DNA of 61,394 bases. Source: Candidatus Methanophagales archaeon (GTDB taxonomy: Archaea; Halobacteriota; Syntropharchaeia; Alkanophagales; Methanospirareceae). The position numbers and the translations under genes are program-made. This document shows positions 10,036-46,878 of the stretch, piece by piece (position 1 is the stretch's first letter; each line of letters starts with the position of its first letter). The notes below the pieces were generated by a model. That model had not been told where the DNA came from. It worked only from the letters and a program-made list of their open reading frames with translations, and searched no databases. The stretch lies in contig JANJFQ010000001.1 in assembly GCA_025435355.1 (NCBI GenBank), positions 1 to 61,394 on the forward strand. The letters run 5' to 3'.

Positions 10036-10044
10036 ATCGAATAT

Positions 10045-10926: not shown

Positions 10927-10936
10927 TTGGTAAAAA

Positions 10937-12835
10937 CTAAGCCAGCCACCCGTGTACAAGCATAGCGATCAAATATAAAGCGAAAAAGAGAAGCACCAGC
11001 AGCACCCCAGTCCCTATGCTCATTCTTTCCATTGGTTCTTCTACTGGTCGCATCTTTACCTCCTCCAGATCTCGCTCGTAATGCTTATATACTGGTTGTA
11101 TTACCAGGTTGAAAACGAAAACAAAAGGTTTCAACAGCGCTACACCTATCATGTCCATCATCATTCTTGTTCCTCGCAGTGGATTCTTGCTGAACTTGAC
11201 GAAAAAATCCGCTATTCTCAATACTATTTTCTCTACGGCAATCGCAAAACTCACTAATGGGCTCTCGCATAGCCATATGAATCCTCTACCAGCTTTTCTA
11301 TACAGATAATCTACGTCATTCGTTATCTTCTCATGAGGCGCAAAGAACCCTATCATGAAGAACAGAAAAACAGTCATCAGCACCAACTCTACTGTTCCTA
11401 AAGTGTGCCCGAGTTCGTATGCATGGTAATGTAACGCCGCCTCCTTATAAGGCAGTATTCCATAAAGCAACTTTGGGTATAATCCGATAACAATGCAAAG
11501 GAAAGCGGTAACGCACATTGGAACAAGCATTGGTAACGGCGCCTCCTTCGCTTCTATATTCTCATTTTTACTGAAAAAAGCAAAATAGGTGAGTTTTAAG
11601 AATGATATGAGTGTGCCTACTGAACCCAACATCAAAGCTAATTCTAAAATCCCCATTCCTCGTACCCCGTTTAAAGCTGCCTCGTGTGCCGCGTGAATTA
11701 TCATACCCTTGCTCACATATCCATTAAAGCCTATAACGCCGGAGATGGAAAGCGCCGCTATCACGCACGTTATCATCGTTACGGGCATCTTCTTCGCCAG
11801 TCCTCCCAGTTCTGTGAGGTTGTTTTTTCCTGTTCTATATATCACTGCACCCATACACATGAACAGCGTTGTCTTGAACAACAGGTTGTTGAAAAGGTGT
11901 GCAATTGAACCGTTTATAGCTATCTCAGTTGCTACTCCGGCTGCCATTCCCACACCTGCTACCATATAGCCCAATTGACTCACAATGTGATAAGAAAGGA
12001 GTTTTCTCACATCGTTCTGTAATATCGCAAATATAACGCCGTAGAGACACATCGCTCCGCCCAGGTATGCTACCGCTTCTACACCCGAGAAGGTCCTCGC
12101 AAGCACGTATATACCCGTCTTCGTAGTGAATATGGACAAAAAAATGGTGCCTGCTATGGTTGCCTTCGGATACGAATCCGGCAGCCATGTATGCAGTGGA
12201 ATAAATGCTGCGTTTACTCCTATCCCTATAAGCAAAAGGAAATATCCTAGACCCGGCTTTACTGGTCCTACTGCGATAAGACCGGTGTTCATATAATGTA
12301 TTAGTATCCCGCCGAGAAGGGCACAACCACCAAACAGGTGAAACAGAATGTATCGCATTCCCGAATCTCTCGCTCTCCTCGAACCCTCGTACCATATCAA
12401 ACCAAGAGAAGAGAACGCCATCATCTCCCAGAATATGTACAGCGTGAAGAAATCTCCCGCGAATACCGCTCCCAACGCGCTTCCCATGTACAGCAACGCA
12501 CATATATGATGACCATTCTCTTTTACAGTAGATAGAGAATATATTATCGCCGACCCTCCCGCTATGGCAAATATATACCCCATTATAATGCTCAATCTAC
12601 CAAGATATCCACTCTCAACGTGTAAGAATGTCAGCTTCAATCCCGGCAGAACAGAAAATTCCCAGCCGGGTAGTGGTTGTCTTCCTATCAAAGCCACACT
12701 TATCAAACCAAGCGCTGCTAAAAGGATAAGGTAAACGTTCCTCACTCTACCTTTCCCAAAGAGAGGTATTAACACCGCACCAAAGATGAATATAAAAGCC
12801 GGTGGTATGTTCGGTACACTGCTTATATCAATCAT
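10937..12835 (-). CDS. antiporter-like subunit (PF00361-type, NuoL/M/N-MrpA/D superfamily), 'C/X-type' with C-terminal helix+TM tail
   Basis: 632-aa polytopic ORF. Motifs 'LHTWLPDSYPKATIAG', 'LLSYHIVSQLGYMVAG', 'GLAKKMP'. The tail is '...FSKNP...YERDLEEV...IGTGVLLVLLFFALYLIAMLVHGWLA'. Confidence 0.8.
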   Translation of the reverse strand: MIDISSVPNIPPAFIFIFGAVLIPLFGKGRVRNVYLILLAALGLISVALIGRQPLPGWEFSVLPGLKLTFLHVESGYLGRLSIIMGYIFAIAGGSAIIYSLSTVKENGHHICALLYMGSALGAVFAGDFFTLYIFWEMMAFSSLGLIWYEGSRRARDSGMRYILFHLFGGCALLGGILIHYMNTGLIAVGPVKPGLGYFLLLIGIGVNAAFIPLHTWLPDSYPKATIAGTIFLSIFTTKTGIYVLARTFSGVEAVAYLGGAMCLYGVIFAILQNDVRKLLSYHIVSQLGYMVAGVGMAAGVATEIAINGSIAHLFNNLLFKTTLFMCMGAVIYRTGKNNLTELGGLAKKMPVTMITCVIAALSISGVIGFNGYVSKGMIIHAAHEAALNGVRGMGILELALMLGSVGTLISFLKLTYFAFFSKNENIEAKEAPLPMLVPMCVTAFLCIVIGLYPKLLYGILPYKEAALHYHAYELGHTLGTVELVLMTVFLFFMIGFFAPHEKITNDVDYLYRKAGRGFIWLCESPLVSFAIAVEKIVLRIADFFVKFSKNPLRGTRMMMDMIGVALLKPFVFVFNLVIQPVYKHYERDLEEVKMRPVEEPMERMSIGTGVLLVLLFFALYLIAMLVHGWLA

Positions 12836-14022: not shown

Positions 14023-15855
14023 TTACAACCACAGCAGCCCATGCGTCAGATAAATAATCAGATAGAGCGTGAAAAACACGAGTGCCAGCAACACCCCTGT
14101 TCCTATCGCCACTCTCGGCACTTCTCCCGGATACACCTTCTTGAGCTCCTCCAAATCCCGCTCATATCGCATATACGCGGGATTGAAAGGTCTCATTACC
14201 ACTGCACCCACCATAGCCACCATTATTCTTGACGCCGCCGTTGGGTTCCTGCTGAACCATACGAAAGAATCAGCAATTCTAAGCAATCCTTTATCAATGA
14301 AATTCGCAACTGTCACTAATGGCTGCTCGCAGAACCATATAAACCCTCTCCCTGCCTTCCTGTATAGGTGGTCTATATCATACGTTATTCTTTCATGTGG
14401 TGTAAGTACGATTTTCATTATGAAGAACATAAATGCAGTCATTATCAACAATTCCAGCGTGCCTATCGTATGCCCAAGTGCGTATGGATGAAAATGAACA
14501 ACTTCATAAGGTAGTATTCCGTAAAGCAGCTTTGGATACACACCAATAGCAACGCAAAGGAAAGCAGTAACGCTCATTGCGATTAGCATGGGCAGCGGTG
14601 CTTCTTTCGCTTTTATTTCATCATTTCGCTTGAAAAACGTGAAATAAGTGAGTTTTAAGAAAGACAGGAAAGTGCCTACTGAACCCATTATCAAAGCAAG
14701 TGCAAGGATATGCATCCCGTCCAGTTCCGCAGCTTGAATCACCATACTTTTGCTTATGTATCCGTTAAAGCCCATAACGCCTGAAATAGAAAGAGCTGCT
14801 ATCACGCACGTTATCATCGTCACCGGCATCTTCTTCGCTAATCCACCAAGTTCTGTAAGGTTGTTCCTTCCTGTCGCATATATCACTGCACCCATACACA
14901 TAAACAGCAGTGCCTTATACAAAATATGGTTGAAAACGTGTGCGATTCCTCCGTTTATCCCTATATAAGTCCCTATCCCTATACCAGCAACCATGTAGCC
15001 TACCTGACTCACAATATGGTAAGAAAGGAGTTTCCTTACATCGTTTTGCATCAGTGCAAACACAACACCATAGAGGCACATCGCTCCGCCTATGTATGCT
15101 ACCGCCTCTACACCAGGAAAAGTCCTCGCAAGCACATATACGCCCGTCTTTGTCGTATATACAGACAAAAATACAGCTCCTGCTATCGTTGCTTTTGGAT
15201 ATGAATCCGGTAACCAGGTATGCAGTGGAATAAATGCCACGTTCACACCTATTCCGATAAGCATAAGGAGATATCCTAAAATACCTGCTTCATTTATATT
15301 TATAGACGCCACCAGTACAGAACCTGTGTTCATGTAATGTATCAGTATTCCACCAAGAAGGGCACAACCACCAAACAAGTGAAACAGGATATATCGCATC
15401 CCCGCGTTTGTCGCCCTCTCTGTCCGGCTGTACCAGATTAACCCGAGCGAAGAGAAAGCCATTATCTCCCAGAAGATGTACAAAGTGAAGAAATCGCCGG
15501 CAAATACCACACCAAGGGCGCTTCCTAAATATAGCAATCCACATACAAACTCGCCGCTCTCTTTCACTATATTTACTGAATATAATATCGCAGCACCGCC
15601 TATCAGAGCAAATATGTAGCCCATTATAAGGCTCAAACTATCGGCATGCAAGAACGTCAGCTCAAATCCGGGGAGAACTGTAAATCCCCATGTTGTCTGT
15701 GGTTTTATTAAAGCTACACTGATTAACCCAAGCGCAGCTAAGACGATAAGATAAATCTTCCTCCCCTTTCCCTTTCCGAGCAAGGGTATTAATGCAGCTC
15801 CTGCAAGGTAAATAAGAGCAGGAGGCACATTCGGTATGCTACTTATATCAATCAT
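14023..15855 (-). CDS. antiporter-like subunit (PF00361-type), 'C/X-type' with C-terminal helix+TM tail
   Basis: Close paralog of 10937..12835 ('MIDISSIPNVPPALI...', 'LHTWLPDSYPKATIAG'). The tail is 'FSRNPTAASRIMV...RPFNPAYMRYERDLEELKK...IGTGVLLALVFFTLYLIIYLTHGLLWL'. Confidence 0.8.
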   Translation of the reverse strand: MIDISSIPNVPPALIYLAGAALIPLLGKGKGRKIYLIVLAALGLISVALIKPQTTWGFTVLPGFELTFLHADSLSLIMGYIFALIGGAAILYSVNIVKESGEFVCGLLYLGSALGVVFAGDFFTLYIFWEIMAFSSLGLIWYSRTERATNAGMRYILFHLFGGCALLGGILIHYMNTGSVLVASININEAGILGYLLMLIGIGVNVAFIPLHTWLPDSYPKATIAGAVFLSVYTTKTGVYVLARTFPGVEAVAYIGGAMCLYGVVFALMQNDVRKLLSYHIVSQVGYMVAGIGIGTYIGINGGIAHVFNHILYKALLFMCMGAVIYATGRNNLTELGGLAKKMPVTMITCVIAALSISGVMGFNGYISKSMVIQAAELDGMHILALALIMGSVGTFLSFLKLTYFTFFKRNDEIKAKEAPLPMLIAMSVTAFLCVAIGVYPKLLYGILPYEVVHFHPYALGHTIGTLELLIMTAFMFFIMKIVLTPHERITYDIDHLYRKAGRGFIWFCEQPLVTVANFIDKGLLRIADSFVWFSRNPTAASRIMVAMVGAVVMRPFNPAYMRYERDLEELKKVYPGEVPRVAIGTGVLLALVFFTLYLIIYLTHGLLWL

Positions 15856-15904: not shown

Positions 15905-16171
15905 CTAAATCCACACGCCCATATATGTCCAAGAAATAACCAAATATGCCACAGCGAAAGCAAGCGAATAAAACAGCGCAGCCCCTATCGCTAAGGTTCG
16001 GGTATCTCCTATACATTCTTTTGACATTTCTAATCCCTTCGCATAGCCCATGCGAGCAGGACTAAACGGTCTCAGCACCGTCACACCCACTAAGTTTACC
16101 AGTATCTTCGTTGCAAGCGCCGGATTCTTCCCAAAACATCTCCACGAGCCCAAAATTTTTTTTATTCCCAT
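15905..16171 (-). CDS. free-standing homolog of the antiporter C-terminal tail (amphipathic segment + 1 TM)
   Basis: 88 aa. 'GKNPALATKILVNLVGVTVLRPFSPARMGY...LAIGAALFYSLAFAVAYLVISWTYMGVWI' aligns with the last ~90 aa of 14023..15855 and 16507..18315. Confidence 0.6.
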   Translation of the reverse strand: MGIKKILGSWRCFGKNPALATKILVNLVGVTVLRPFSPARMGYAKGLEMSKECIGDTRTLAIGAALFYSLAFAVAYLVISWTYMGVWI

Positions 16172-16204
16172 GTCCTTTCACCCCCTATTTTTCATCACCC
16201 CTTC

Positions 16205-16275
16205 GGGACACCTTCTTCACCTTCGCTTTTTGTTCCCCTTTAGCCACCTTTTTCACTTGTATCACAAGTGTCCCC
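16205..16275. promoter_or_regulatory. conserved leader/operator element: GGGACAC ... GTATC-N4-GTGTCCCC
   Basis: 'GGGACAC' (16205-16211) is the reverse complement of 'GTGTCCC' (16269-16275). 'gtatcacaagtgtcccc' (16259-16275) matches the motif at 18977-18993, 29199-29214 and 41711-41724. Confidence 0.45.
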
Positions 16276-16397
16276 TATACACTATATGTAACATGAGTAT
16301 TAAAAAGGTTTTCGATTATGGCACGTCGTGCCACCGGTGCCACCCGTGTCACCAATGGCACAAAGATAAGAAAAACATTAGCGAGTTCCTATACTTG

Positions 16398-16472
16398 TTT
16401 ACTGCTGAACCTGCCGAAAACACAGAGAGCCTGGAAAATCATTTACTGGATCTCCGCGATCTCGGCGGTAAA
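16398..16472. repeat. MITE-like short interspersed repeat, copy 1 (shorter)
   Basis: 'TTTACTGCTGAAC...GAAAACACAGAGAG...TCTCCGCGATCTCGGCGGTAAA' aligns with 51102..51203. The ends are inverted repeats (TTTACyGCTGA / TCGGCGGTAAA). Confidence 0.5.
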
Positions 16473-16506
16473 CAAATACAAATTTTCCATTGGCTATTGG
16501 CTCCAA

Positions 16507-18315
16507 TTACGCCCATAGCACCCCGTACGTCAGATACATAAACAGGTATAGCGTGAAAAACATGATTACCAGCAGCACGCCTGTTCCAATCGCCACCCTG
16601 TGCACCTCTCCGGGATACAACCTCCTGAGCTCCTCTAAATCTTGCTCATATCGCATATACCCTGGATTAAATGGTTTCAAAAGCACCATGCTTGCCGTAA
16701 GCACCATTATTCGTGAGGCTACTGCCGGGTTCTTGCTGAACCAAACGAAGGAATCAGCAATTCTCAACAGGGTTTTGTCAATGGAATCCGCAAAATTTAA
16801 CAACGGTTTCTCGCAGAACCATATAAATTTCTTCCCCGCTATTCGATAGAACCAGTCGGTATCAAGCGTGATTGTTCGTTCCCCGCGAAGCATCCCTTTC
16901 AGCATCCAAAATGCTAAAAATGTAAACAGAAGTAGTTGACTCATTCCTATTACATGCGATGCGGTGTAAGGAGCATAATCAACTGCATAAGGAAGCATCT
17001 TGTAAAGGGCTTGTGGATACACGCCGATAAATACGCAAAGAAAAGCAGTAACACCCATCGCTGCGAGCATATTTTTAGGTGGCTCTCTTGCCTCAACGAC
17101 CGACTTCTTTCTCCCAAACCATGTAAGATATGGGAGTTTTAGACATGTGACGAGGAATGTTCCTATTGCAGCTCCTTCGAGCAACAACCATACAATGGGC
17201 AGATGTGCCGCCGCTTCCACAACCATTGTTTTACTCACAAATCCACTGAACAGAGGGAATCCGGAAATGGAGAAAGCGCCAATCATGTAAAGCCCGAAAG
17301 TGAGGGGCATGTATTTGTACATACCGCCCAATTCAGTGAACTTACTTCTCCCCGTCATCTCAAGCACTGCACCTGCACCCATGAATAGCAACGCCGTATA
17401 AAGAATGCAGCTTAAAGCATGTGCAGTTGAACCATTTATTGCCATCCCGATTCCTATTCCAACACCTGCTACCATGTATCCTCCCTGACCGATGATAGAA
17501 TAGGCGAGAAGTCTTCTTATATCATTCTCAAGCACAGCGAAAATAACTCCATACACTGCCATTATCGCTCCCAACCATATCAAAAGCTCAACACCCGGGA
17601 AACCCCGGATCAACACATATATCGCACTTTTTGTCGTGAACGCGGTCAAAAATACGGCTCCAGTAACCGTGGCTTCCGGGTAAGCATCAGACAACCAGGC
17701 ATGCAATGGAGGAACCGCGGCGTTTATAATAAAACCAACGAATATAAAGTAAGAGGACAAGTAACCCCAACCCGTTCCCCAACTAAAAGGGTTAAAAGCA
17801 ATGGAGCCTGTGTTTTGCATGTGTAAAATAATGCCTGCTAATAGGCATATACCACCAAAAATATGCACCATGATATATCGGAATCCCGCTTCAGAAGATG
17901 CCTTCGTCTTGCGATACCAGATAAGGAAAAGCGAAGAAAAAGCCATCACTTCCCAAAATAAGTACAGAGTAAAAAGGTCCCCTGCGAAAACTATTCCCAG
18001 TGCGCTTCCAACGTAGAGGAAGGCAGATATATGTTGCCCGTCCTCTTTTACATGCAGTGCATAAAGAGTGGCACAAAAAGCTACAATAACAAATATATAA
18101 CCGAAAACCAAACTCAATTGGTCAACCCTGCCAAAAACGAGCTCATATTCCAAAAGAGGAATACTCCAGAATACACCTTCCGACATATACAGAAGGTCTA
18201 TAAGCGCCGCTATCGGCAACAGAAGCAGATATATCTTTTTCCAGTTTCCTTTTAGGACCGGTATTAGAAGAGCGCCTAAGATAAATATAAGTCCCGGATG
18301 CAGCCACTCAATCAT
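16507..18315 (-). CDS. antiporter-like subunit (PF00361-type), 'C-type' with C-terminal helix+TM tail
   Basis: 'LHAWLSDAYPEATVTGAVF', 'LLAYSIIGQGGYMVAG', 'GGMYKYMP'. The tail is 'FSKNPAVASRIMV...KPFNPGYMRYEQDLEELRR...IGTGVLLVIMFFTLYLFMYLTYGVLWA'. The start is set at MIEWLHPGLIF by analogy with 36409..38229 (the ORF track starts at 18366). Confidence 0.8.
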   Translation of the reverse strand: MIEWLHPGLIFILGALLIPVLKGNWKKIYLLLLPIAALIDLLYMSEGVFWSIPLLEYELVFGRVDQLSLVFGYIFVIVAFCATLYALHVKEDGQHISAFLYVGSALGIVFAGDLFTLYLFWEVMAFSSLFLIWYRKTKASSEAGFRYIMVHIFGGICLLAGIILHMQNTGSIAFNPFSWGTGWGYLSSYFIFVGFIINAAVPPLHAWLSDAYPEATVTGAVFLTAFTTKSAIYVLIRGFPGVELLIWLGAIMAVYGVIFAVLENDIRRLLAYSIIGQGGYMVAGVGIGIGMAINGSTAHALSCILYTALLFMGAGAVLEMTGRSKFTELGGMYKYMPLTFGLYMIGAFSISGFPLFSGFVSKTMVVEAAAHLPIVWLLLEGAAIGTFLVTCLKLPYLTWFGRKKSVVEAREPPKNMLAAMGVTAFLCVFIGVYPQALYKMLPYAVDYAPYTASHVIGMSQLLLFTFLAFWMLKGMLRGERTITLDTDWFYRIAGKKFIWFCEKPLLNFADSIDKTLLRIADSFVWFSKNPAVASRIMVLTASMVLLKPFNPGYMRYEQDLEELRRLYPGEVHRVAIGTGVLLVIMFFTLYLFMYLTYGVLWA

Positions 18316-18538
18316 AATAATCCTCCCCCCTTTGAAGCCAGTGATGCCCCAGGGCTTTTGAGACAACGATGATCAGAATACAGCCAATAAACCCACATAT
18401 TGCACTAAATCCCGGGATTGCCTGCCATAAGAAGGCAGCGTGAGCATGCTCGTGGAAATTAACGAGCACACCAGCTAATACAGTCACCGCAAGGCATACA
18501 TAAAGCATACAAACCAAATACTTCTTTTCTATCCCCAC
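18308..18538 (-). CDS. small His-rich 2-TM membrane protein (family of 3 in this window)
   Basis: 76 aa. 'NFHEHAHAAFLWQAIPGFSAICGFIGCILIIVVSKALGHHWLQRGEDYYD'. Paralogs at 25857..26087 and 38278..38514. Its stop overlaps the start of the downstream C-type gene. Confidence 0.65.
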   Translation of the reverse strand: MGIEKKYLVCMLYVCLAVTVLAGVLVNFHEHAHAAFLWQAIPGFSAICGFIGCILIIVVSKALGHHWLQRGEDYYD

Positions 18539-18618
18539 TTCATACGACCTCCAAATTTACAACTAACCTGTTATTCGCAACCTCTGCAAACCTTTTCGCC
18601 TCCGCTTTTTATTTTTAC

Positions 18619-18894
18619 CTAAACCCACGCCTTCCCATACGTCAGATAAAGGAACAAATACATCATGCTGAAGGCAAGCGACATCATTACCACAGTCCAA
18701 ATCGTCAAGCCTTGGAGCTGTTCTTCGGGGCATCTACCCTTCATCGCTTCTTCTAAATCACGCTCATAGCGCACATACGTATGATTAAATGGTTTCAGCA
18801 GTGTCGCTCCTACCACGTCTATCAATATCCTTGTTGCAAGTGCCGGATTTTTGCTAAGACATCTCCACGGGCCAAAAATATTTTTTATTCTCAT
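18619..18894 (-). CDS. free-standing homolog of the antiporter C-terminal tail (amphipathic segment + 1 TM)
   Basis: 91 aa. 'SKNPALATRILIDVVGATLLKPFNHTYVRYERDLEEA...LAFSMMYLFLYLTYGKAWV' aligns with the fused tails. Confidence 0.6.
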   Translation of the reverse strand: MRIKNIFGPWRCLSKNPALATRILIDVVGATLLKPFNHTYVRYERDLEEAMKGRCPEEQLQGLTIWTVVMMSLAFSMMYLFLYLTYGKAWV

Positions 18895-18931
18895 TTCCTT
18901 TTTCCTTCACCTCCTACTTTTATCCTTCTGA

Positions 18932-18993
18932 GGACACCGCCTTACTTGCACCTCGCTTTTCTCCCCCGTGACTTTGGTGTCACCAGTGTCCCC
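18932..18993. promoter_or_regulatory. conserved leader/operator element: GGACAC ... GTGTC-N4-GTGTCCCC
   Basis: 'ggacac' (18932-18937) is the reverse complement of 'gtgtcc' (18986-18991). 'gtgtcaccagtgtcccc' spans 18977-18993. The region is homologous to 16205..16275. Confidence 0.45.
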
Positions 18994-19054
18994 AATTAAT
19001 TATATGTCACAGGTGCCTTATAAAACTTTCGGTTTCGCGCAAAGAAACATCGAG

Positions 19055-19124: not shown

Positions 19125-20063
19125 ATGGGCGTAAAAGAATCCTTAGAAAAAGCGATAATGGATAAAAGAACGCTGGTTGTGGTAATAGTTATAGCGATTT
19201 TGTGGCGGACGGCTATAAGCCTTGACAAAGAGATAGCGCTTTGGGAAAGTATGTGCTCAGGTGTTGCTCTTTTCATCATGGGCTGGACTCTCTTCGGTTA
19301 CCTGTATCACATGTCCCTGAAAGAGACGAGCTGGTTAATTTCGAATAAGATGTTTCAGGGGATTGCCGTTAGCCTATGCACCTTAAATGCTTACGTTCTT
19401 GTTTACTATGGGATGAGATGGTATAGATTAATGAGTGAAACGGAAGCTTATATGCCAATGGATTACCTTCTTAGAAATATGAGATACGCCATGTTAGTGC
19501 TGGCTTATTGTGGCATAATATGGTCGGCGGGTTACCTGAAAAAGATGCACGATAATTATATGCTGATAACCAAAGAAATTCCAGAGATGCATAAAGGAGT
19601 CATAAGAGACGCATTATTCAAAATTATAACTGATGAGCGAACGGTGATAGTGATAATAGGCATAGCGTTTTTATGGCGAACCGCTGTAAGCCTTGACAAA
19701 GAGATAATGCTTTGGGAAAGTATGTGCTCAGGTGTTGCTCTTTTCATCATGGGCTGGGTTCTCTTCGGTTACATAAGTTCATTGACCCTGAGGGTGACCA
19801 GACCAAGCATGATGAAGATCTACCAGGGGATTGCCATTGCTCTATGCGCTATAAACATTTATTCTATTGTTTACTACGGAATGAGATGGTATAGAGTGAT
19901 AAGCATGGGAGAGGAAGTCTTAATGCCGCTGGATTTTCTCTTTAGAGACGTAAGATATTTTATGTTAGTGATATTTTATTGCACGGCAATAGTGCTATCG
20001 AAGTATTTAGAAAAAGCATCTGAGGAGTGTGAGTTCCTGATTAAGAAAGAATCGGAGGCTTAA
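19125..20063 (+). CDS. polytopic membrane protein of unknown family with internal tandem duplication (2 x ~155 aa)
   Basis: Both halves share 'ILWRTAxSLDKEIxLWESMCSGVALFIMGWxLFGY ... YQGIAxxLCxxNxYxxVYYGMRWYR ... RYxMLVxxYC'. An 85-nt stretch (19217-19301) is nearly identical to 19688-19772. Confidence 0.65.
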   Translation: MGVKESLEKAIMDKRTLVVVIVIAILWRTAISLDKEIALWESMCSGVALFIMGWTLFGYLYHMSLKETSWLISNKMFQGIAVSLCTLNAYVLVYYGMRWYRLMSETEAYMPMDYLLRNMRYAMLVLAYCGIIWSAGYLKKMHDNYMLITKEIPEMHKGVIRDALFKIITDERTVIVIIGIAFLWRTAVSLDKEIMLWESMCSGVALFIMGWVLFGYISSLTLRVTRPSMMKIYQGIAIALCAINIYSIVYYGMRWYRVISMGEEVLMPLDFLFRDVRYFMLVIFYCTAIVLSKYLEKASEECEFLIKKESEA

Positions 20064-20128: not shown

Positions 20129-21088
20129 TTGGGGTTTTCTAAGATGAGCATGAGAGCATTCACATTTAAGGCACTAACAGATGAACGGATATTAATAGTA
20201 ATAATAGGTGTAGCGTTTTTATGGCGAACCGTCGTACGCCTCGACAGTAAGATAGCACTTTGGGAATGTATCTGCTCCGGTATTACTCTTCTCATAATGG
20301 GCTGGCTTCTCTTCGTTTACCTATATTCCATGTCTTTAAAACCGACACGCTGGCCGGTATCGAATAAGATTTATCACGGTATTGCCCTTAGCCTTCTCGT
20401 TATAAATATTTATGTGGTTATTTACTATGGGATGAGATGGTTTGGATTACCGCTTGTAGAAGTTTCCATGCCGCGTGATTACATTTTCAGAGATGTAAGA
20501 TATGTGATGTTCGTGACGTTTTATTGTGCGGTAATATGGTCGACCCGGTATCTCAGAGGGATGCACGAGAATTACAGACTACTAATCAAAGAAAGACCGA
20601 AGAAGTCTGCAAAGAGCATGAAAAAATTTTTATTCAGAGTAATAACGAATGAACGAACATTAATAGCGATAATAGTAGCAGCGATTCTGTGGCGAATAGC
20701 CATAAGCTTTGACTACATTATAACCTTTTGGGAAAGTACGTGCTCATGTATTACTCTGCTCATGATAGGCTGGTTTCTCTTCGGTTACATAAGTGCATTA
20801 ACCGTGAAAGTGAAGGCAACGTTAGAATTAGCTAAAGTCTGCTATGGGCTTGCCCTTGGTCTATGCGCTGTAAACATTTATGCTATTTTTTACTATGGTA
20901 TGAGATGGTATGAAGTGATAGGCATAGTCATGGGAAATGTGCCGGGAATTTATGTGCCTCAGCCACTGGATTTGGTCTTTAGTGGTGTAAGGTATGTCAC
21001 GTTAGTGATATTTTATTGCACAGCAATAGTGTTATCAAAGTATTTAGAAAAGGCATACGAGGACTATACGGTGCCGGTCAAAATGTAA
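20129..21088 (+). CDS. polytopic membrane protein, same internally duplicated family
   Basis: 'FLWRTVVRLDSKIALWECICSG...YYGMRWF' and 'ILWRIAISFDYIITFWESTCSC...YYGMRWY'. It lies in tandem after 19125..20063. Confidence 0.65.
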   Translation: MGFSKMSMRAFTFKALTDERILIVIIGVAFLWRTVVRLDSKIALWECICSGITLLIMGWLLFVYLYSMSLKPTRWPVSNKIYHGIALSLLVINIYVVIYYGMRWFGLPLVEVSMPRDYIFRDVRYVMFVTFYCAVIWSTRYLRGMHENYRLLIKERPKKSAKSMKKFLFRVITNERTLIAIIVAAILWRIAISFDYIITFWESTCSCITLLMIGWFLFGYISALTVKVKATLELAKVCYGLALGLCAVNIYAIFYYGMRWYEVIGIVMGNVPGIYVPQPLDLVFSGVRYVTLVIFYCTAIVLSKYLEKAYEDYTVPVKM

Positions 21089-21137: not shown

Positions 21138-21386
21138 TTAAATGCGCAATATGCCTATGTTGTAAAGCAGCGACAATATATATGCCATCACGCAGAAAGC
21201 AAGAAAGGTAATCGCCAGGAAAAGGCCTACATAAAATCCTAAACTCTCCACCTCTACTCCAGGGCAATGCGCCTTTATTGAGTCCACCGCTCTCGGTTCA
21301 TACGAACCTAAACTCAGCGTGAGCCTCATTGTGTCCGCTGGACATTTAACAAAACATTTCAATGCAGTAATGAATTTACTCTCCAT
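21138..21386 (-). CDS. small Cys-containing protein with C-terminal TM anchor (family of 2)
   Basis: 82 aa. 'KCFVKCPADTMRL...HCPGVEVESLGFYVGLFLAITFLAFCVMAY'. Paralog at 34594..34860. Confidence 0.55.
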   Translation of the reverse strand: MESKFITALKCFVKCPADTMRLTLSLGSYEPRAVDSIKAHCPGVEVESLGFYVGLFLAITFLAFCVMAYILSLLYNIGILRI

Positions 21387-23995: not shown

Positions 23996-25864
23996 TCATT
24001 TTATAAGCCACCCATGTATAAACATAGCTATCAAATACAAAGCGATAAAGATAAGCACCAGTAGCATTGCATTCCCTATGTTCAATCTTACCATTGGTTC
24101 TTCTGCCGGTTGCCTCTTCTTCACCTCCTCCAAATCTCGCTCATATTCCGCAGCCCTTTCTGCAGTAGCAATAGGTTTCTCCACCTTTAGCCTTGCTTCT
24201 TCTCCCTTTATTCTCAACGCAGCCATTGGATTCCTGCTGACCCAGACAAAAAACCCTGCCATTCTCATTACATTATGGTCAATGTAGTTTGCAAACGCCA
24301 TCAGCGGTCCTTCGCAGAACCATATAACTCTTTTCCCCGTTATCCGGTAGAACCAGTCGGTATCAAGCGTAATTGTCGGCGTACCATGAAGCATTCCCCT
24401 TAGCAGCCAAAACGCTACAAATGTGAACAGAAGGAGCTGGCTCATTGCTACCACATGACCCGCCGCAAAGGGTTCATAATGAACTGGATACGGAAGCATG
24501 TTGTAAAGTATTTTTGGATACACACCGAGAAGTGTGCACAAAAACGCGGTTATGCCCATTGCCGCGAGCATATTCTTAGGTGGCTCTCTTGCCTCGCATA
24601 CTGGCTCCTCTCTTGCAAACCACGCGCCCCAGGGAAGTTTTAGACCTGTATGCAGGAAGGTTCCTATTGAGGCGCCTTCGAGCATCAGCCATATAATTGA
24701 ATAATGCCACATCGCAGAGGCAGTAACAATCATTGTCTTACTCACGAATCCGTTGAATAGAGGAAATCCTGAAATCGAAAATGCACCTATCATGTAAAGC
24801 CAAAAAGTGATGGGCATGTATTTGTATATGCCACCCAGTTCGGTCAGTTTGCTTCTTCCCGTTACCTCTATTATTGCACCCATGCCCATGAAAAGTAACG
24901 CCTTATACAAAATATGACAGAAAGCATGTGCAGCCGCACCGTTTAGCGCCATTTCTCCAGCCGCAGTGCCAAAAACACCCATTCCCACTCCACACACCAT
25001 GTATCCTACCTGGGAGATGATGTGATAAGCTAAAAGTCTTCTTATATCATTCTCAAGCACTGCGTAAACAACCCCGTACACCGCCATTATCGCTCCTAAC
25101 CATATCAGAATCTCAACACCCGGGAAACCCCTTATCAGCACGTATATCGCACTCTTTGTGGTAAATGCGGTTAGAAACACCGCACCGGTAACAGTCGCTT
25201 CTGGATACGCATCAGCCAGCCACGCGTGTAAAGGTGGCACGGCGGCATTTATGATAAAGGCGGTAAACACGAGGTAAGAAGCCAGATACTCACTCCCCAG
25301 CCCCCATCCAAAAGCTTCAAAGGCGATGGAACCCGTGTTTTGCAGTTGTAAAACTACTCCCCCTAACAGACATATACCACCGAAAAAGTGCACCATGATG
25401 TATCGGAACCCCGCACCATAAGCTGCTTTTGTCCTTCGATACCAGATGAGGAATAGCGAAGACCATGCCATCACCTCCCAGAAGAAGAACAGAACAAAAA
25501 GGTCACCTGCGAAAACCACGCCCAGCGTGCTCCCAACGTAGAAGAAAGCGGCTACATGCTGCCAATTCTCCTTTATGTGAATTGCATAAAGAATCATGCA
25601 AAAGGATGCAATCACAAATATATATGCAAAAACCATGCTCAGCCGGTCTATTCTGCCGAAGGTAAGTTCATATCCTAAGAAAGAAAGGAACCATGTTTTC
25701 CCTTCTGACAGAAGCACGCCTCTCGACATGAGCAGAAGGTTTATAAATGCTACTGCCGGGAGTAAGAGCAGATATGCCTGTTTCACTCTCATTTTTCCCC
25801 GTAAAACGGGTATTAGCAGTGACCCAAAGATGTATATGAGTCCCGGGTGAAACCACTCAATCAT
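23996..25864 (-). CDS. antiporter-like subunit (PF00361-type), 'C-type' with C-terminal helix+TM tail
   Basis: 'LHAWLADAYPEATVTGAVF', 'LLAYHIISQVGYMVCG', 'GGIYKYMP'. The tail is 'SRNPMAALRI...YERDLEEVKKRQ...IGNAMLLVLIFIALYLIAMFIHGWLIK'. The start is set at MIEWFHPGLIY (ORF track 25915). Confidence 0.8.
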   Translation of the reverse strand: MIEWFHPGLIYIFGSLLIPVLRGKMRVKQAYLLLLPAVAFINLLLMSRGVLLSEGKTWFLSFLGYELTFGRIDRLSMVFAYIFVIASFCMILYAIHIKENWQHVAAFFYVGSTLGVVFAGDLFVLFFFWEVMAWSSLFLIWYRRTKAAYGAGFRYIMVHFFGGICLLGGVVLQLQNTGSIAFEAFGWGLGSEYLASYLVFTAFIINAAVPPLHAWLADAYPEATVTGAVFLTAFTTKSAIYVLIRGFPGVEILIWLGAIMAVYGVVYAVLENDIRRLLAYHIISQVGYMVCGVGMGVFGTAAGEMALNGAAAHAFCHILYKALLFMGMGAIIEVTGRSKLTELGGIYKYMPITFWLYMIGAFSISGFPLFNGFVSKTMIVTASAMWHYSIIWLMLEGASIGTFLHTGLKLPWGAWFAREEPVCEAREPPKNMLAAMGITAFLCTLLGVYPKILYNMLPYPVHYEPFAAGHVVAMSQLLLFTFVAFWLLRGMLHGTPTITLDTDWFYRITGKRVIWFCEGPLMAFANYIDHNVMRMAGFFVWVSRNPMAALRIKGEEARLKVEKPIATAERAAEYERDLEEVKKRQPAEEPMVRLNIGNAMLLVLIFIALYLIAMFIHGWLIK

Positions 25865-26087: not shown

Positions 26088-26097
26088 CTTTGTCTCT

Positions 26098-34593: not shown

Positions 34594-34860
34594 TTATGGA
34601 GGGAAAAGCATTTCCCGGTACAGGATAACGGCTTTAAGCGCGTAAAAAAATAGATACGCCATCACACAAAGAACAACGAAAAGAACACCCATGAAAAGAC
34701 CGAAGTAATAACCTAAACTCTCCACTTCTACTTCAGGGCAATTTTCCTTTATTAATTCCAATGTCTCAGGGTCACATGAACCCAAACCACGGATGAGCCT
34801 AATGGTGCATGCGGGACATCTAATAAAACATTTAATTGCACTGCCGAATTTACTTCCCAT
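34594..34860 (-). CDS. small Cys-containing protein with C-terminal TM anchor
   Basis: 'KCFIRCPACTIRL...NCPEVEVESLGYYFGLFMGVLFVVLCVMAY'. It ends 39 nt upstream of the KaiC-like gene. Confidence 0.55.
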   Translation of the reverse strand: MGSKFGSAIKCFIRCPACTIRLIRGLGSCDPETLELIKENCPEVEVESLGYYFGLFMGVLFVVLCVMAYLFFYALKAVILYREMLFPP

Positions 34861-34915: not shown

Positions 34916-36412
34916 TTATAATAGTCCTATTACAGAGTGGAGGAGATCCATGATGGGTTCAGGATACAAGCCTATGATGAAAGATATAACTGCCAGGATG
35001 AGAAGAGGAATACTCATCGTTAATGGCGGGTCCCTAATCTTAGCGTTATTTGCTAGTTCGGGCTTTAAGGGACCAAAGAATATTCTATGCGCAGCCCAGA
35101 ATGTATAAGCACCCGTTAATATGGTTGAGAGGATACCCAGACTTGCAATTACCAGTCCTATGGAAGTTGGATTTGCACTGAAAATGCCGGTAAACAATAT
35201 CCATTTTCCTGTAAATCCACTTGTGAGAGGAACACCTGTGAGTATTACTGCGCCTGCTATCCAGAGCGTAGCGGATATTGGCATCTTATGTATAAGTCCA
35301 CCCATCTTACTCATATTCCTGATCCCCGTTACATAAACTATTATACCGGCAGTTGAAAAGAGAATGGCTTTACCCAGGATATGACTCAGGAAGTAATAGA
35401 CTCCGCCTTCAATACTCCAGATTGTGAGTGCTCCCAGCCCAATGAGCGAGTATGATATCTGACCGATAGTTGAGCACGCACAGAGTCGCTTCACGTCATC
35501 TTGAGCCAGCGTGAGAAGAGCGCCATATACTATGGTTATCAGAGCCATTATCATAATAGGTATGCCGAACACTTTGAGGTCATTATGGAGTGGCAGGATG
35601 AGAACCCTAACAATCACATACGCAGCTATATTAGCATAAACGGCAAGCAATCCCGCTATGCAGGTGGGATGCTCTGCGTGAACCGAGGGCATCCAAACGT
35701 GAAGCGGAAATACTGCCATCTTGGTAAATAGACCGAGAAAGATAAGTAATGCAATCCAAAAAGCCATTGGATTCCCTGCAAGAGCATGTAACTCTGAGAT
35801 TTCAAAGGTACCCATCTGAGAGTAAACTAATACAGACCCAAATAAGACGAATGTTCCACCAACAATTCCCCATAGGAAACACATTACGGCAACTCTAAAG
35901 CGCTCTACATAGCCAAAGTAACTCATGATGAAGTAAAGGGGAATAACGAGTAATTCTATAAAGAGGTATATTATTATGAGGTTTGTAGCAAAGCAAATAC
36001 CAAGGAAACTTATGGGGAAGAGGAGGTAGAGCCAGAAATAGGTGGTGTAATACGCAAGCCGTGTCTTTTCATCTTCGTCTTCATATATTACCTCTAATCG
36101 GTGTTCTACATAGTGCAGTGAGTAAAACGAAAGAGCGGTGCATATTATATTTATTATCAATGCAACAGGTAGACTCAAACCGTCAGCCAAAAGCCCAAAG
36201 GTCACATAGGGCCCCCACACATATTCCTCGCGAATCACCGTACCCTGATAAACGCGGATGCCCGCTATGAAGAGAAGAGCAGTAGTGTATAGTAGAGCCA
36301 TAATGGGTATCCATCCAGCTCTTCTTCCTATTTTGCGCCTGGTTAAAAGTATGACCAGAGCGGCTATAACTGGCACGAGCATTGTTTGCAGGAGAATATA
36401 GGGTATCATCAT
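34916..36412 (-). CDS. antiporter-like subunit, 'D-type' (NuoM/ND4-like)
   Basis: 'LLADGLSLPVALIINIIC', 'FIELLVIPLYFI', 'LHVWMPSVHAEHPTCIAGLLA', 'CSTIGQISY', 'GGLIHKMP'. The start overlaps the upstream stop by 4 nt. Confidence 0.75.
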   Translation of the reverse strand: MMIPYILLQTMLVPVIAALVILLTRRKIGRRAGWIPIMALLYTTALLFIAGIRVYQGTVIREEYVWGPYVTFGLLADGLSLPVALIINIICTALSFYSLHYVEHRLEVIYEDEDEKTRLAYYTTYFWLYLLFPISFLGICFATNLIIIYLFIELLVIPLYFIMSYFGYVERFRVAVMCFLWGIVGGTFVLFGSVLVYSQMGTFEISELHALAGNPMAFWIALLIFLGLFTKMAVFPLHVWMPSVHAEHPTCIAGLLAVYANIAAYVIVRVLILPLHNDLKVFGIPIMIMALITIVYGALLTLAQDDVKRLCACSTIGQISYSLIGLGALTIWSIEGGVYYFLSHILGKAILFSTAGIIVYVTGIRNMSKMGGLIHKMPISATLWIAGAVILTGVPLTSGFTGKWILFTGIFSANPTSIGLVIASLGILSTILTGAYTFWAAHRIFFGPLKPELANNAKIRDPPLTMSIPLLILAVISFIIGLYPEPIMDLLHSVIGLL

Positions 36413-38229
36413 TCCACCACCACCGTAAATAGTATATAGACGAGAAGGACGAACATAGCAAGAAGTATGTAGAGTAAATTATACGACAACTCTCTATCCT
36501 TAATTTGCTTTATTTTGTCATGGATCTCTTTGAAATTGAGTAGTTCCGGAAGTCTCACGTGAAACGCTTTATCCAGTGGATTCTCAACATACGTAACTAC
36601 GAGGGGCCAAAAATCATTGCCGAAAAAACCTGCCATTCTCATTACATTACGGTCAACGTAGTTCGCGAACGCCATTAACGGCTTCTCGCAGAACCATATA
36701 ACCCTCTTCCCCGGTATTCGATAGAACCAGTCGGTATCAAGCGTGATTGTTGGCGTACCATGAAGCATTCCCTTTAGCAGCCAAAACGCTACGAATGTGA
36801 ACAGAAGGAGCTGGCTCATTGCTACCACATGACCAGCCGCATAAGGAACGTAATCAACTGGATAAGGAAGCATGTTGTAAAGTATTTTTGGATACACACC
36901 GAGAAGTGTGCACAAAAACGCGGTTATGCCCATTGCGGCAAGCATATTCTTAGGTGGCTCCCTTGCCTCGCATACTGGCTCCTTTCTTGCAAACCACGCG
37001 CCCCACGGAAGTTTCAAACCGGTATGCAGGAAGGTTCCAATCGAAGCGCCTTCGAGCATCAGCCATATAATTGAATAATGCCACATCGCAGAGGCAGTGA
37101 CAACCATTGTCTTGCTCACGAATCCGTTGAATAGAGGAAATCCGGAAATCGAAAATGCGCCGATCATATAAAGCCAAAAAGTGATGGGCATGTATTTGTA
37201 GATACCACCCAATTCGGTCAGTTTGCTTCTTCCCGTTACCTCTATTATTGCACCCATACCCATGAAAAGGAGCGCTTTGTAAAGGATATGGCAGAAAGCA
37301 TGCGCAGCCGCACCATTTATTGCCATTTCTCCAGCCGCAGTGCCAAAAACGCCCATCCCCACCCCGCATACCATGTATCCCACCTGGGAGATGATATGAT
37401 ATGCAAGAAGTCTTCTTATATCATTCTCAAGTACTGCAAATACAACCCCATACAGCGCCATGATCGCTCCTAACCATATCAGAACCTCAACACCCGGAAA
37501 GCCTCTTATCAGCACGTATATCGCACTCTTCGTGGTAAATGCAGTTAAAAACACCGCTCCGGTAACCGTCGCTTCCGGATACGCATCCGCCAGCCAAGCA
37601 CCTAAAGGAGGCACGGCAGCATTTATGATAAATGCGAGAAATATAAGATAAGAAGCCAGATACTCACTTCCTAATCCCCATTCAAAACTTTCAAATGCGA
37701 TAGAACCCGTAGCTTGCAACTGTAACACAACACCTGCTAATAGGCATATACCGCCAAACATGTGCACCATGATAAACCTGAATCCCGCACCGTATGCTGC
37801 CTTCGTTTTACGATACCAAATTAAGAGCATTGATGACCATGCCATCACTTCCCAGAAGAAGAATAGAGTAAAGAGGTCGCCTGCGAATACCACTCCCAGC
37901 GTGCTGCCGACGTAGAAGAAAGCGGCTAAATGCTGCCCCGTCTCGCTTACATGAAGTGCATAAATCGTCATGCAAAAGGATGCAATCACGAATACGTATG
38001 CGAATACCATGCTCAGCCGGTCCACTCTCCCGAGGGTAAGCTCGTATCCCATGAAGGAGAGCTGCCAGAAAGGGCCAGTCCCGAATACGCCCTTTGATAT
38101 GAGTATGAGGTCAATAAACGCTACTGCGGGCAACAGAAGCAAATACACCTGCCTCCCTTTACCCTTTAACACGGGTATCAAAAGGGCTCCTAAGAGAAAT
38201 ATAAGTCCTGGGTGCAACCATTCAATCAC
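36409..38229 (-). CDS. antiporter-like subunit, 'C-type', with a different C-terminal tail
   Basis: The core is near-identical to 23996..25864 up to 'NVMRMAGFF'. It then diverges into 'GNDFWPLVVTYVENPLDKAFHVRLPELLNFKEIHDKIKQIKDRELSYNLLYILLAMFVLLVYILFTVVVE'. Confidence 0.8.
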   Translation of the reverse strand: MIEWLHPGLIFLLGALLIPVLKGKGRQVYLLLLPAVAFIDLILISKGVFGTGPFWQLSFMGYELTLGRVDRLSMVFAYVFVIASFCMTIYALHVSETGQHLAAFFYVGSTLGVVFAGDLFTLFFFWEVMAWSSMLLIWYRKTKAAYGAGFRFIMVHMFGGICLLAGVVLQLQATGSIAFESFEWGLGSEYLASYLIFLAFIINAAVPPLGAWLADAYPEATVTGAVFLTAFTTKSAIYVLIRGFPGVEVLIWLGAIMALYGVVFAVLENDIRRLLAYHIISQVGYMVCGVGMGVFGTAAGEMAINGAAAHAFCHILYKALLFMGMGAIIEVTGRSKLTELGGIYKYMPITFWLYMIGAFSISGFPLFNGFVSKTMVVTASAMWHYSIIWLMLEGASIGTFLHTGLKLPWGAWFARKEPVCEAREPPKNMLAAMGITAFLCTLLGVYPKILYNMLPYPVDYVPYAAGHVVAMSQLLLFTFVAFWLLKGMLHGTPTITLDTDWFYRIPGKRVIWFCEKPLMAFANYVDRNVMRMAGFFGNDFWPLVVTYVENPLDKAFHVRLPELLNFKEIHDKIKQIKDRELSYNLLYILLAMFVLLVYILFTVVVE

Positions 38230-45344: not shown

Positions 45345-45346
45345 TT

Positions 45347-45847: not shown

Positions 45848-45870
45848 AGCTTACCTCGCCTCCCAAAATA

Positions 45871-45948: not shown

Positions 45949-45950
45949 AC

Positions 45951-46756: not shown

Positions 46757-46878
46757 TTTTTTATTTATCTCCTACTTCTGCTGTTCATATTTAAAATATA
46801 TTATATAAAACTGTCGCTTTTTACCCGTAACTTTAACTTTTGCGCTTTTCATTTTTCATTGCCGCCGTCAGGCGATTA

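What the first reader, a model, noticed from the sequence alone, without database searches (positions are those of the whole stretch)
15905..18894. A C-terminal amphipathic-helix + TM 'tail' occurs both fused to antiporter-like subunits and as two free-standing genes
Four C/X-type proteins (10937, 14023, 16507, 23996) end with a ~110-aa extension beyond the transporter core. The extension reads '...F(V/S)(K/R)NP-x-A-x-(S/R)-I-M-V...(K/R)PF-N-P-x-Y-M-R-YE(R/Q)DLEE...IGTGVLL-x-x-x-FF-x-LYL...G-x-LW'. It is a long charged or amphipathic stretch followed by one terminal TM. Two short ORFs (15905..16171, 88 aa; 18619..18894, 91 aa) encode only this segment ('KNPALAT(K/R)IL...(R/K)PF...YERDLEE...TM'). 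Each is the first gene of a module. By analogy with established structures, NuoL and MrpA carry a long lateral helix plus a terminal TM that clamps neighbouring antiporter-like subunits. A detachable version of such a clamp is not something I know to be described.
Basis: partly seen in the sequence, partly recalled or inferred. Interest (0 to 1): 0.7.

Follow-up and report, generated by a model that had tools for sequence, protein, structure and literature searches.

The report
Free-standing lateral-helix anchor genes in ANME-1
Two small genes in this methane-oxidising archaeon encode stand-alone copies of the C-terminal "clamp" tail of neighbouring ion-pump subunits; they are real, conserved genes, but a separately encoded clamp is already known from a related enzyme, so this is a new variant, not a new principle.

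Summary
ORFs 15905-16171 (88 aa) and 18619-18894 (91 aa) are homologous to the last ~85 residues of the long antiporter-like proteins at 10937, 14023, 16507 and 23996. The protein at 36409 has a diverged version of the same tail.

The long proteins are full-length members of NCBIfam NF009310. AlphaFold2 with Foldseek gives them a NuoL/MrpA/MbsH'-type end: an extra TM, segmented long helices, then a terminal TM.

The small ORFs are real genes:
- Each has a Shine-Dalgarno site and its own BRE/TATA-like promoter.
- Relatives lie in the same place (tail ORF x1-3, then a 2-TM ORF, then the long gene) in at least 25 other ANME-1-type loci.
- dN/dS is 0.12-0.5.
- They form one clade apart from the fused tails (bootstrap 87/100).

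Two more shortened copies sit at 21138-21386 and 34594-34860. Relatives show further detachments: a 111-aa tail created by a 1.76-kb in-frame deletion, and 139-166-aa TM15-HL-TM16 genes after short subunits.

The novelty claim fails in principle. MbhI of the membrane-bound hydrogenase is a published separate lateral-helix subunit equivalent to the MbsH' C-terminus.

What is new is an unannotated ANME-1 family carrying only the distal helices plus the anchor, and coexisting with fused tails. The docking role is inferred, not shown.

The parts
18619..18894 (-). Free-standing tail gene (91 aa): short N-terminal helix, NP hinge, hydrophobic helix, PF hinge, charged YERDLEE helix, one C-terminal TM
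   Evidence: ORF. Homology to fused tails. Shine-Dalgarno AGGAGGTGA and a BRE/TATA-like box at 19034. Present in NCBI, JGI and Logan as 'hypothetical protein'. AlphaFold2 helices 3-15, 17-33, 40-54 and 65-90, pLDDT 63.
15905..16171 (-). Second free-standing tail gene (88 aa); more diverged (YAKGLEM in place of YERDLEE)
   Evidence: ORF. tblastn E 3e-13 to the B14023 tail. Shine-Dalgarno GGGGGTGA and a BRE/TATA-like box at 16317 after a T-rich stretch that follows the upstream gene's stop. A close relative, P0145, exists elsewhere.
21138..21386 (-). Third free-standing copy, shortened subtype (82 aa; KCFVKCPA...CPGVEVESLG + TM)
   Evidence: HMM of the free-standing family E 3e-5, positions 45-85. 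Sequence. Shine-Dalgarno AGGTGA.
34594..34860 (-). Fourth free-standing copy, shortened subtype (88 aa); lies after the 498-aa short subunit and 40 nt upstream of a KaiC/GvpD-like ATPase gene
   Evidence: HMM E 3e-7. Belongs to a 25-member 90% cluster that includes ANME-1 GoMg1 proteins. Shine-Dalgarno AGGAGGTAA.
16507..17007 (-). Fused TM15-HL-TM16 tail of the long antiporter-like protein 16507-18315 (602 aa from MIEWLHPG)
   Evidence: C-terminal HMM positions 1-165. AlphaFold2 secondary structure. NF009310 full-length match, 694 bits against a cutoff of 564.
14023..14526 (-). Fused tail of the long protein 14023-15855 (610 aa)
10937..11467 (-). Fused tail of the long protein 10937-12835 (632 aa; 8-aa insertion after the PF motif)
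23996..24508 (-). Fused tail of the long protein 23996-25864
36409..36882 (-). Diverged fused tail of the long protein 36409-38229 (606 aa)
   Evidence: C-terminal HMM positions 1-165, E 2e-56 for the whole ORF. The free-family HMM does not reach it.
18308..18538 (-). 2-TM small ORF (76 aa) between the tail gene and the long gene; its stop overlaps the long gene's start. Paralogues at 12828-13022, 25857-26105 and 38278-38514
   Evidence: Conserved position in related loci. No Pfam family.

Best explanation
The two ORFs, and two shorter copies elsewhere in the window, are translated, tail-anchored membrane proteins. They are stand-alone paralogues of the distal part of the TM15-lateral helix-TM16 module that ends the long, NuoL/MrpA/MbsH'-like antiporter-like subunits of an ANME-1 group-3 Mrp-type gene cluster.

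Each keeps the NP hinge, the hydrophobic helix, the PF(N)P hinge, the acidic YERDLEE helix and the terminal TM with its conserved Gly and Tyr. I therefore infer that they dock on the same receptor surface as the distal end of a fused tail: the cytoplasmic face and the TM16 slot of an antiporter-like subunit. There they would act as separately expressed staples or caps for sites that no fused tail occupies, such as short 500-aa subunits or the end of a chain.

The precedent is MbhI, the separate lateral-helix subunit of the membrane-bound hydrogenase.

Shown here: homology, gene reality, conservation, synteny, single origin of the main family, and helical plus single-TM architecture.
Inferred: N-in topology, docking site, and the clamp or cap function.
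For: Homology to fused tails.

The fused proteins are functional-looking L-type subunits:
- NF009310 matches over the full length, tail included.
- The channel residues E122, K229, H299, K362 and K393 are invariant in 83 homologues.
- AlphaFold2 gives TM15, three helices and TM16.
- Foldseek ranks MrpA, NdhF, NuoL and MbsH' first, with whole-length alignments.

The small ORFs are real genes:
- A Shine-Dalgarno site precedes all four, and a shared BRE/TATA-like box precedes the two main ones.
- 87-97-aa homologues were found in 10 loci from 8 GTDB species genomes and in 15 metagenome contigs.
- Wherever context exists, these homologues lie upstream of the 2-TM ORF and long gene, or of a KaiC-like gene, often as 2-3 tandem copies.
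- Pairwise dN/dS is 0.12-0.5.
- The free versus fused split appears in an NJ tree with bootstrap 87/100.

The tail has been detached repeatedly:
- A 111-aa gene in L028/L029 arose by an in-frame 1.76-kb deletion. It joins the 2-TM start codon to the A-type tail, and dN/dS against the fused tail is 0.14.
- 139-166-aa TM15-HL-TM16 genes follow short subunits in L023-L025.

Literature precedent for split versus fused lateral helices: MbhI vs MbsH'.
Against: - No structure of a complex could be computed, and the tools return no coordinates. The lateral position of the helix and any interface are therefore untested.
- The tail region of the AlphaFold2 model has only pLDDT 55-74, and the small-ORF model only 63.
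- The small ORFs lack the strongly amphipathic proximal helix. The helix they keep (NPALATRILIDVVGATLL) is hydrophobic (KD 1.3, muH 0.16), so it could be membrane-embedded rather than lateral.
- They coexist with fused tails in the same operon, so they are not simple replacements.
- No tail-to-subunit stoichiometry rule emerged across loci.
- 15905-16171 has lost the YERDLEE motif.
- No sequence similarity to MbhI, MbsH', NuoL or MrpA tails is detectable.
- No expression data are available.
Confidence: 0.5

Rival explanations
1. The small proteins are membrane anchors or adaptors for the KaiC/GvpD-like ATPases that accompany these modules. The cytoplasmic ~55 residues would bind the ATPase, and the TM would tether it next to the antiporter-like array.
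For: - KaiC/GvpD-like genes (PF07088/PF06745) recur beside the modules in the window and in L005, L007, L010, L021, L023-25 and L030.
- The short-type copy 34594-34860 and the P0152-type copies in L023-25 lie directly upstream of a KaiC-like gene on the same strand.
- L021 and L030 have two tail genes and two KaiC-like genes in one operon.
Against: - The conserved residues are the same ones conserved in the fused tails, which have no separate ATPase-binding role documented.
- L001-L004 and L012 have tail genes but no adjacent KaiC-like gene within the stretch read.
- The numbers of tails and ATPases do not match in the window (4 vs 2).
Confidence: 0.15
2. They are competitive regulators. A free distal tail would occupy the docking slot of a fused tail and so limit, terminate or remodel the oligomerisation of long subunits, acting as an assembly-control factor rather than a permanent subunit.
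For: - They have their own promoter and sit first in the operon.
- Copy number varies (1-3 tandem copies), and they coexist with fused tails of the same type.
- Selection is somewhat more relaxed than on fused tails: 0.12-0.5 against 0.11-0.14.
Against: - There is no direct evidence.
- It shares every untested assumption of the main hypothesis (same docking site) and adds another (competition).
Confidence: 0.15
3. They are non-functional leftovers of partial duplications or deletions of the long genes that happen to stay open.
For: - The cluster is highly paralogous.
- One free tail in a relative clearly arose by deletion.
- 15905-16171 has a degraded acidic motif.
Against: - dN/dS is well below 1 across many pairs.
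- The ORFs are intact, with Shine-Dalgarno sites and a promoter, in at least 25 loci.
- The family has its own conserved N-terminal signature, WRCFGK(N/D)P(A/V)LAT, and forms one clade.
Confidence: 0.05

Closest known systems
MbhI, small subunit of the Pyrococcus furiosus membrane-bound hydrogenase (PDB 6CFW)
   Same: It is a separately encoded small membrane protein that carries the lateral helix HL spanning an antiporter-like subunit. The literature equates it with the fused TM15-HL-TM16 end of MbsH' (PMC7684303, PMC8165549, PMC8415708 Table 2). The 139-166-aa genes after short subunits in L023-25 have the same TM-HL-TM layout.
   Different: - MbhI has two TMs and a loop that reaches the hydrogenase active site. 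It is also the only HL in its complex.
- The window's ORFs have one TM and only the distal helices, and they coexist with fused tails.
- No hydrogenase module is present in the window.
- No sequence similarity to any PDB chain was detected.
MbsH' of the membrane-bound sulfane sulfur reductase (PDB 6U8Y chain X)
   Same: It is the best PDB sequence match of the long proteins (E 9e-53). Its length is similar (618 aa), with a 14-TM core plus TM15, HL and TM16. It ranks 12th by fold over 614 aligned columns.
   Different: The sequence alignment covers the core only (residues 61-446), so the tail is not alignable. The MbsH' loop between TM15 and HL contacts a redox arm that is absent here.
NuoL/ND5/NdhF of complex I and MrpA of Mrp antiporters
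   Same: They have the same C-terminal TM15, long lateral helix and TM16 that clamp neighbouring antiporter-like subunits. They are the top Foldseek hits (7qru_A, 6z16_A, 6khj_F, 8qby_L).
   Different: - The tail is always fused in these families.
- MrpA carries a further MrpB-like domain.
- The tails show no sequence similarity to those here.
NCBIfam NF009310 (PRK12668) 'Na(+)/H(+) antiporter subunit D'
   Same: All five long proteins match over the full length above the curated cutoff, and for four of them the match reaches to within a few residues of the C-terminus (36409-38229 aligns only to residue 568 of 606). Homologues occur in Methanophagales, Methermicoccaceae, Hydrothermarchaeota and Syntrophobacterales.
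   Different: The family model describes only the fused form. The free-standing ORFs match no NCBIfam or Pfam model.

Membership tests
NF009310 / PRK12668 long MrpD-like subunit (the fused proteins) | Whole-protein score above the curated cutoff (564 bits) with end-to-end coverage of the 584-position model | tested here: met
   Scores are 595, 659, 694, 693 and 687 bits. Model coverage is 2/6 to 581/583 for four proteins and 3-555 for 36409.
L-type antiporter-like subunit (NuoL / MrpA / MbsH') | Proton_antipo_M core with conserved channel Glu, Lys and His residues | tested here: met
   PF00361 at E 1e-39 to 1e-47. E122, K229, H299, K362 and K393 are invariant in 83 homologues.
L-type antiporter-like subunit (NuoL / MrpA / MbsH') | C-terminal extra TM, long helix and terminal TM | tested here: met
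   AlphaFold2 gives H452-476, H488-528/530-546/553-566 and H577-600, with tail pLDDT only 55-74. L-type chains rank first in Foldseek, with 610-680 aligned columns.
L-type antiporter-like subunit (NuoL / MrpA / MbsH') | The helix lies laterally across neighbouring subunits and TM16 anchors beyond them | not testable with these tools
   No multimer prediction is offered and no model coordinates are returned.
L-type antiporter-like subunit (NuoL / MrpA / MbsH') | Sequence similarity of the tail itself to solved L-type tails | tested here: not met
   The tail profile against all PDB sequences gives only chance hits at E >= 1. The phmmer alignment to 6u8y_X stops at residue 446.
MbhI-type separate lateral-helix subunit (the free-standing ORFs) | A small, separately encoded membrane protein homologous to the C-terminal HL module of an antiporter-like subunit | tested here: met
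   Gene reality is shown.
MbhI-type separate lateral-helix subunit (the free-standing ORFs) | TM-loop-HL-TM layout (two TMs flanking the helix) | tested here: not met
   The window ORFs have a single C-terminal TM and lack TM15 and the proximal helix. Only the 139-166-aa genes of L023-25 have both TMs.
MbhI-type separate lateral-helix subunit (the free-standing ORFs) | Sequence relationship to MbhI, and association with a [NiFe]-hydrogenase module | tested here: not met
   No PDB chain, 6CFW included, matches at E <= 10 except chance hits. No hydrogenase or NuoBCD-like genes are in the window.
Group 3 Mrp cluster (no mrpA, one or more mrpD) | MrpE, MrpG, MnhB and MrpC-like genes with mrpD paralogues and no MrpA | tested here: met
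   PF01899, PF03334, PF20501, PF04039 and PF00420 at 44955-47737. There are 12 Proton_antipo_M genes, and none matches an MrpA model above its cutoff. Definition from PMC8415708.

The most novel reading that the evidence does not exclude
ANME-1 archaea build variable-length arrays of antiporter-like subunits from interchangeable modules. The lateral-helix/TM16 staple would be a separately transcribed, copy-number-variable part (fused, half-detached or fully detached) that sets which modules are joined or capped, possibly under control of the co-encoded KaiC/GvpD-like ATPases. That would be a regulated, reconfigurable ion-translocating membrane arm working without any redox module.
Probability: 0.15. 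Interest if true: 0.7.

Novelty: new variant of a known kind. Interest (0 to 1): 0.45.

Why it matters
The lateral helix of complex I-type machines is usually treated as a fixed structural strap on one subunit. Here one lineage shows it in every state within related operons:
- fused;
- fully split (TM15-HL-TM16 genes);
- half-split (distal helices plus TM16);
- freshly detached by an in-frame deletion.

That gives a natural series for asking what the strap and its anchor contribute to assembly, as opposed to coupling.

It also gives names and a likely role to a set of "hypothetical proteins". And it flags an unusual ANME-1 gene cluster: 12 antiporter-like genes, conserved 2-TM partners, KaiC-like ATPases and no redox arm. 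Its physiological role in methane-oxidising consortia is unknown.

Tried and rejected
- The word-indexed homologue search with the 91-aa ORF found only itself and one relative. The exhaustive profile search was needed.
- Several short hits of that search are C-terminal fragments of long genes at contig ends, or start at internal Met residues (P0151, P0153, P0158; P0170 sits at a contig edge; P0167 was uninformative). I did not count them as free-standing genes.
I replaced it with a hand-made degenerate DNA pattern specific for (N/D)P(A/V)LAT...YE(R/Q)DL.
- The tail profile against PDB sequences gave only chance hits.
- Foldseek with the low-confidence small-ORF model gave no hits.
- Rfam found nothing in the window.
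- I checked whether the small ORFs are the ends of decayed long genes. There is no core homology, and stop codons occur in all upstream frames, so I rejected this.
- I considered a linker-fused chimera (small ORF plus long subunit) for AlphaFold2.
- I looked for a simple stoichiometry rule between free tails and subunits across loci. None held.
- The context of a bacterial homologue (Syntrophobacterales, L017) shows short subunit, 2-TM ORF and long subunit without a free tail.
Full report
**What is in the sequence.** The window is a contig of an ANME-1 (Methanophagales-type) archaeon. Identical or near-identical proteins are filed under ANME-1 and Methanophagales MAGs.

On the minus strand between about 10.9 and 47.7 kb lie 12 genes with the Proton_antipo_M domain:
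- Seven are short, MrpD/NuoM-like subunits of 498-518 aa.
- Five are long proteins of 602-632 aa, at 10937, 14023, 16507, 23996 and 36409.

There is a single set of MrpG, MrpE, MbhE-like, MnhB and MrpC/NuoK-like genes at 44955-47737. The window has no hydrogenase or other redox arm. In the published classification this is a group-3 Mrp-type cluster: no mrpA and several mrpD copies (PMC8415708).

**The observation.** ORFs 15905-16171 (88 aa) and 18619-18894 (91 aa) exist as described. The evidence that they are homologous to the C-terminal ~85 residues of the long proteins:
- tblastn E-values reach 8e-16.
- A seven-sequence alignment has nine invariant positions, including the NP hinge, the PF motif, the Y..LE acidic helix and residues in the terminal TM.
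- An HMM built from the last 165 residues of more than 100 family members matches the small ORFs over its second half only.
- Upstream of each ATG there is no trace of the transporter core.

The same HMM shows that the fifth long protein (36409) carries the tail too, in diverged form. A profile of the free-standing proteins picks up two further shortened copies in the window, at 21138-21386 and 34594-34860.

**What the fused tail is.** All five long proteins match NCBIfam NF009310 ("Na+/H+ antiporter subunit D", PRK12668) above its curated cutoff. For four of them the alignment runs to within a few residues of the C-terminus; the 36409 protein aligns only to residue 568 of 606. The tail is thus a defining part of an already catalogued family. 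That family also occurs in other archaea and in Syntrophobacterales.

An AlphaFold2 model of the 16507 protein (83-sequence alignment, pLDDT 87, pTM 0.82) shows:
- a confident core;
- an extra TM at 452-476;
- three consecutive helices at 488-528, 530-546 and 553-566, about 70 helical residues in total;
- a terminal TM at 577-600.

The tail itself has only pLDDT 55-74. Foldseek against the PDB ranks MrpA, NdhF, NuoL/ND5 and MbsH' first, with alignments of 610-680 columns. Tail-less M/N/D-type subunits align over about 510 columns. The closest PDB sequence is MbsH' (6u8y_X, 618 aa), but only the core aligns. The tail profile finds nothing in the PDB by sequence.

The reading "TM15, lateral helix, TM16" is therefore supported at the level of architecture. 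It is not supported at the level of sequence or of a demonstrated lateral position.

**Are the small ORFs genes?** Yes, on five counts.
1. *Translation and transcription signals.* All four have Shine-Dalgarno-like sites (AGGAGGTGA, GGGGGTGA, AGGTGA, AGGAGGTAA) a few bases upstream of the ATG. The two main ones are preceded, about 130-145 nt upstream, by a BRE/TATA-like box (AACCGAAAGTTTTATAA at 19034; AATCGAAAACCTTTTTAA at 16317). This box is conserved upstream of homologues in other genomes.
2. *Exhaustive search.* A profile search of 1.84 billion representative proteins returned 34 hits. Several are 76-108-aa proteins with their own N-terminal signature, WRCFGK(N/D)P(A/V)LAT, which fused tails lack.
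3. *Conserved synteny.* A DNA pattern specific for that signature found 10 loci in 8 GTDB species genomes and 15 metagenome contigs.
   - Wherever flanks are available, the 87-97-aa gene lies upstream of a conserved 2-TM ORF and a long subunit, often in two or three tandem copies. Examples: L005, three copies; L021 and L030, tail-tail-2TM-long-short-short-KaiC-KaiC.
   - Otherwise it lies directly upstream of a KaiC-like gene.
4. *Selection.* Pairwise dN/dS among these genes is 0.12-0.5. Fused tails give 0.11-0.14.
5. *Single origin.* In a neighbour-joining tree of 22 free and 34 fused tails, the free ones form one group (bootstrap 87/100). The main family arose once and then diversified. It is not a set of recent debris.

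**Other detached forms in relatives.**
- In two metagenome contigs (L028, L029) a 111-aa gene consists of the first four codons of the 2-TM ORF joined in frame to the A-type tail. The DNA aligns to window 13038-13010 and 11252-10937, so about 1.76 kb is missing. dN/dS against the fused tail is 0.14. A similar 110-aa protein (P0142) exists elsewhere.
- In L023-L025 a 139-166-aa gene encoding TM15, helix and TM16 directly follows a short 503-aa subunit. P0157 and P0163 are of the same kind.
- The tail of this family has therefore become a separate gene several times and at different break points.

**Comparison with what is known.**
- The MBS structure paper states that TMH15, helix HL and TMH16 of MbsH' hold MbsH and MbsH' together. 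It also states that in MBH the equivalent element is on MbhI, a separate subunit whose shorter HL spans the single pump MbhH (PMC7684303).
- A review calls HL "universally conserved" (PMC8165549).
- Table 2 of PMC8415708 lists the MbhI N-terminal part as the counterpart of MbsH' C-terminal TM15-16.

A split clamp is thus textbook for this superfamily. Four things differ here:
- The window's small proteins carry only the distal helices and one TM. They lack TM15 and the most amphipathic stretch of the helix (muH 0.5-0.63 in the fused protein, against 0.16 for the retained hydrophobic helix).
- They are supernumerary. They sit in the same operons as long subunits that keep their own tails.
- They occur in one to three copies and have their own promoter.
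- They form an unannotated family (no Pfam or NCBIfam match). So far it has been seen only in ANME-1-type genomes. I found no paper describing it.

**Most likely mechanism.** The residues conserved in the free proteins are those conserved in the fused tails: NP, PF, the acidic helix, and Gly and Tyr in the TM. The simplest inference is that they bind the same receptor, namely the cytoplasmic face and TM16 slot of an antiporter-like subunit.

With basic residues concentrated before the TM, the expected topology is N-terminus in the cytoplasm, as for NuoL TM16. This topology rests on established knowledge of NuoL and is an inference here. In arrays that mix long and short subunits there are more such sites than fused tails. 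A free staple could fill or cap them.

I put this at about 0.5. The rivals are:
- a tether for the co-encoded KaiC/GvpD-like ATPases (0.15);
- a competitive assembly regulator (0.15);
- non-functional remnants (0.05, largely excluded by the selection and synteny data).

**Limits.**
- No multimer prediction, coordinates or expression data were available.
- The tail parts of both models are of modest confidence.
- The retained hydrophobic helix could be membrane-embedded rather than lateral.

**Verdict.** The finding is real and larger than reported: four free copies in the window, and a conserved family with several independent detachments elsewhere. Its principle is already known from MbhI. 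I rate it a new variant of a known kind, interest 0.45.

Noticed in passing
window 12828-13022, 18308-18538, 25857-26105, 38278-38514 (all minus strand): Four of the five long antiporter-like genes are immediately preceded, with overlapping stop and start, by an unannotated 64-82-aa 2-TM ORF. These end in ...ALGHHWLQ(K/R)(E/G)EDYY or ...IQKEGKQDD. The 14023 gene has none. The ORFs have no Pfam family and are conserved in all related loci, including a Syntrophobacterales genome (L017 9744-10004).
   Followed up: partly
window 22407-23795 and 33151-34554 (minus strand); L005, L007, L010, L021, L023-25, L030: KaiC/GvpD-like P-loop ATPase genes recur next to the antiporter-like modules in the window and in most related loci. 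L021 and L030 have two of them at the end of a tail-tail-2TM-long-short-short operon. Their role beside an ion-translocating membrane array is unexplained.
   Followed up: partly
window 10937-47737: There are twelve Proton_antipo_M genes (5 long, 7 short) but only one MrpE/MrpG/MbhE-like/MnhB/MrpC set, and no redox module. This is an unusually expanded group-3 Mrp-type cluster made of repeated modules.
   Followed up: partly
window 18895-18995 and 16172-16275 (minus strand): The ~100-nt purine-rich leaders of the two tail genes share a closing stem, GGGGACAC...GGUGUCC(U/C)C. The predicted folds have z-scores of -3.4 and -2.3. The homologous leader in L005 folds differently. There is no Rfam match.
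   Followed up: partly
L028 1945-2280 and L029 3778-4113, compared with window 13038-10937: An in-frame 1.76-kb deletion relative to the window joins the 2-TM ORF's first codons (MDKK) to the tail of the 10937-type gene. The result is a 111-aa free-standing tail. It shows one way such genes arise.
   Followed up: yes
L023 3094-3594, L024 1477-1977, L025 1701-2120: 139-166-aa genes encoding a complete TM15-helix-TM16 module lie directly after a short (503-aa) antiporter-like gene. This is an MbhI-like full split of the tail in ANME-1-type metagenome contigs.
   Followed up: partly
window 19125-20063, 20129-21088, 29354-30349 (plus strand): Three paralogous ~312-331-aa membrane proteins, each an internal tandem duplication, with a weak DUF7555 match. 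They are interleaved with the antiporter modules and with CBS-domain genes (13187-13612, 21518-21910). Homologues accompany the modules in L021 and L030.
   Followed up: no
L017 (Syntrophobacterales bacterium CP070774.1) 9333-12073: A bacterial genome carries a short subunit, a 2-TM ORF and a long subunit that are 66% identical to the ANME-1 proteins, next to housekeeping genes. A 50-aa ORF downstream (11921-12073) resembles the terminal TM of the tail. This suggests transfer between ANME-1 and their syntrophic partners, or a binning artefact.
   Followed up: no
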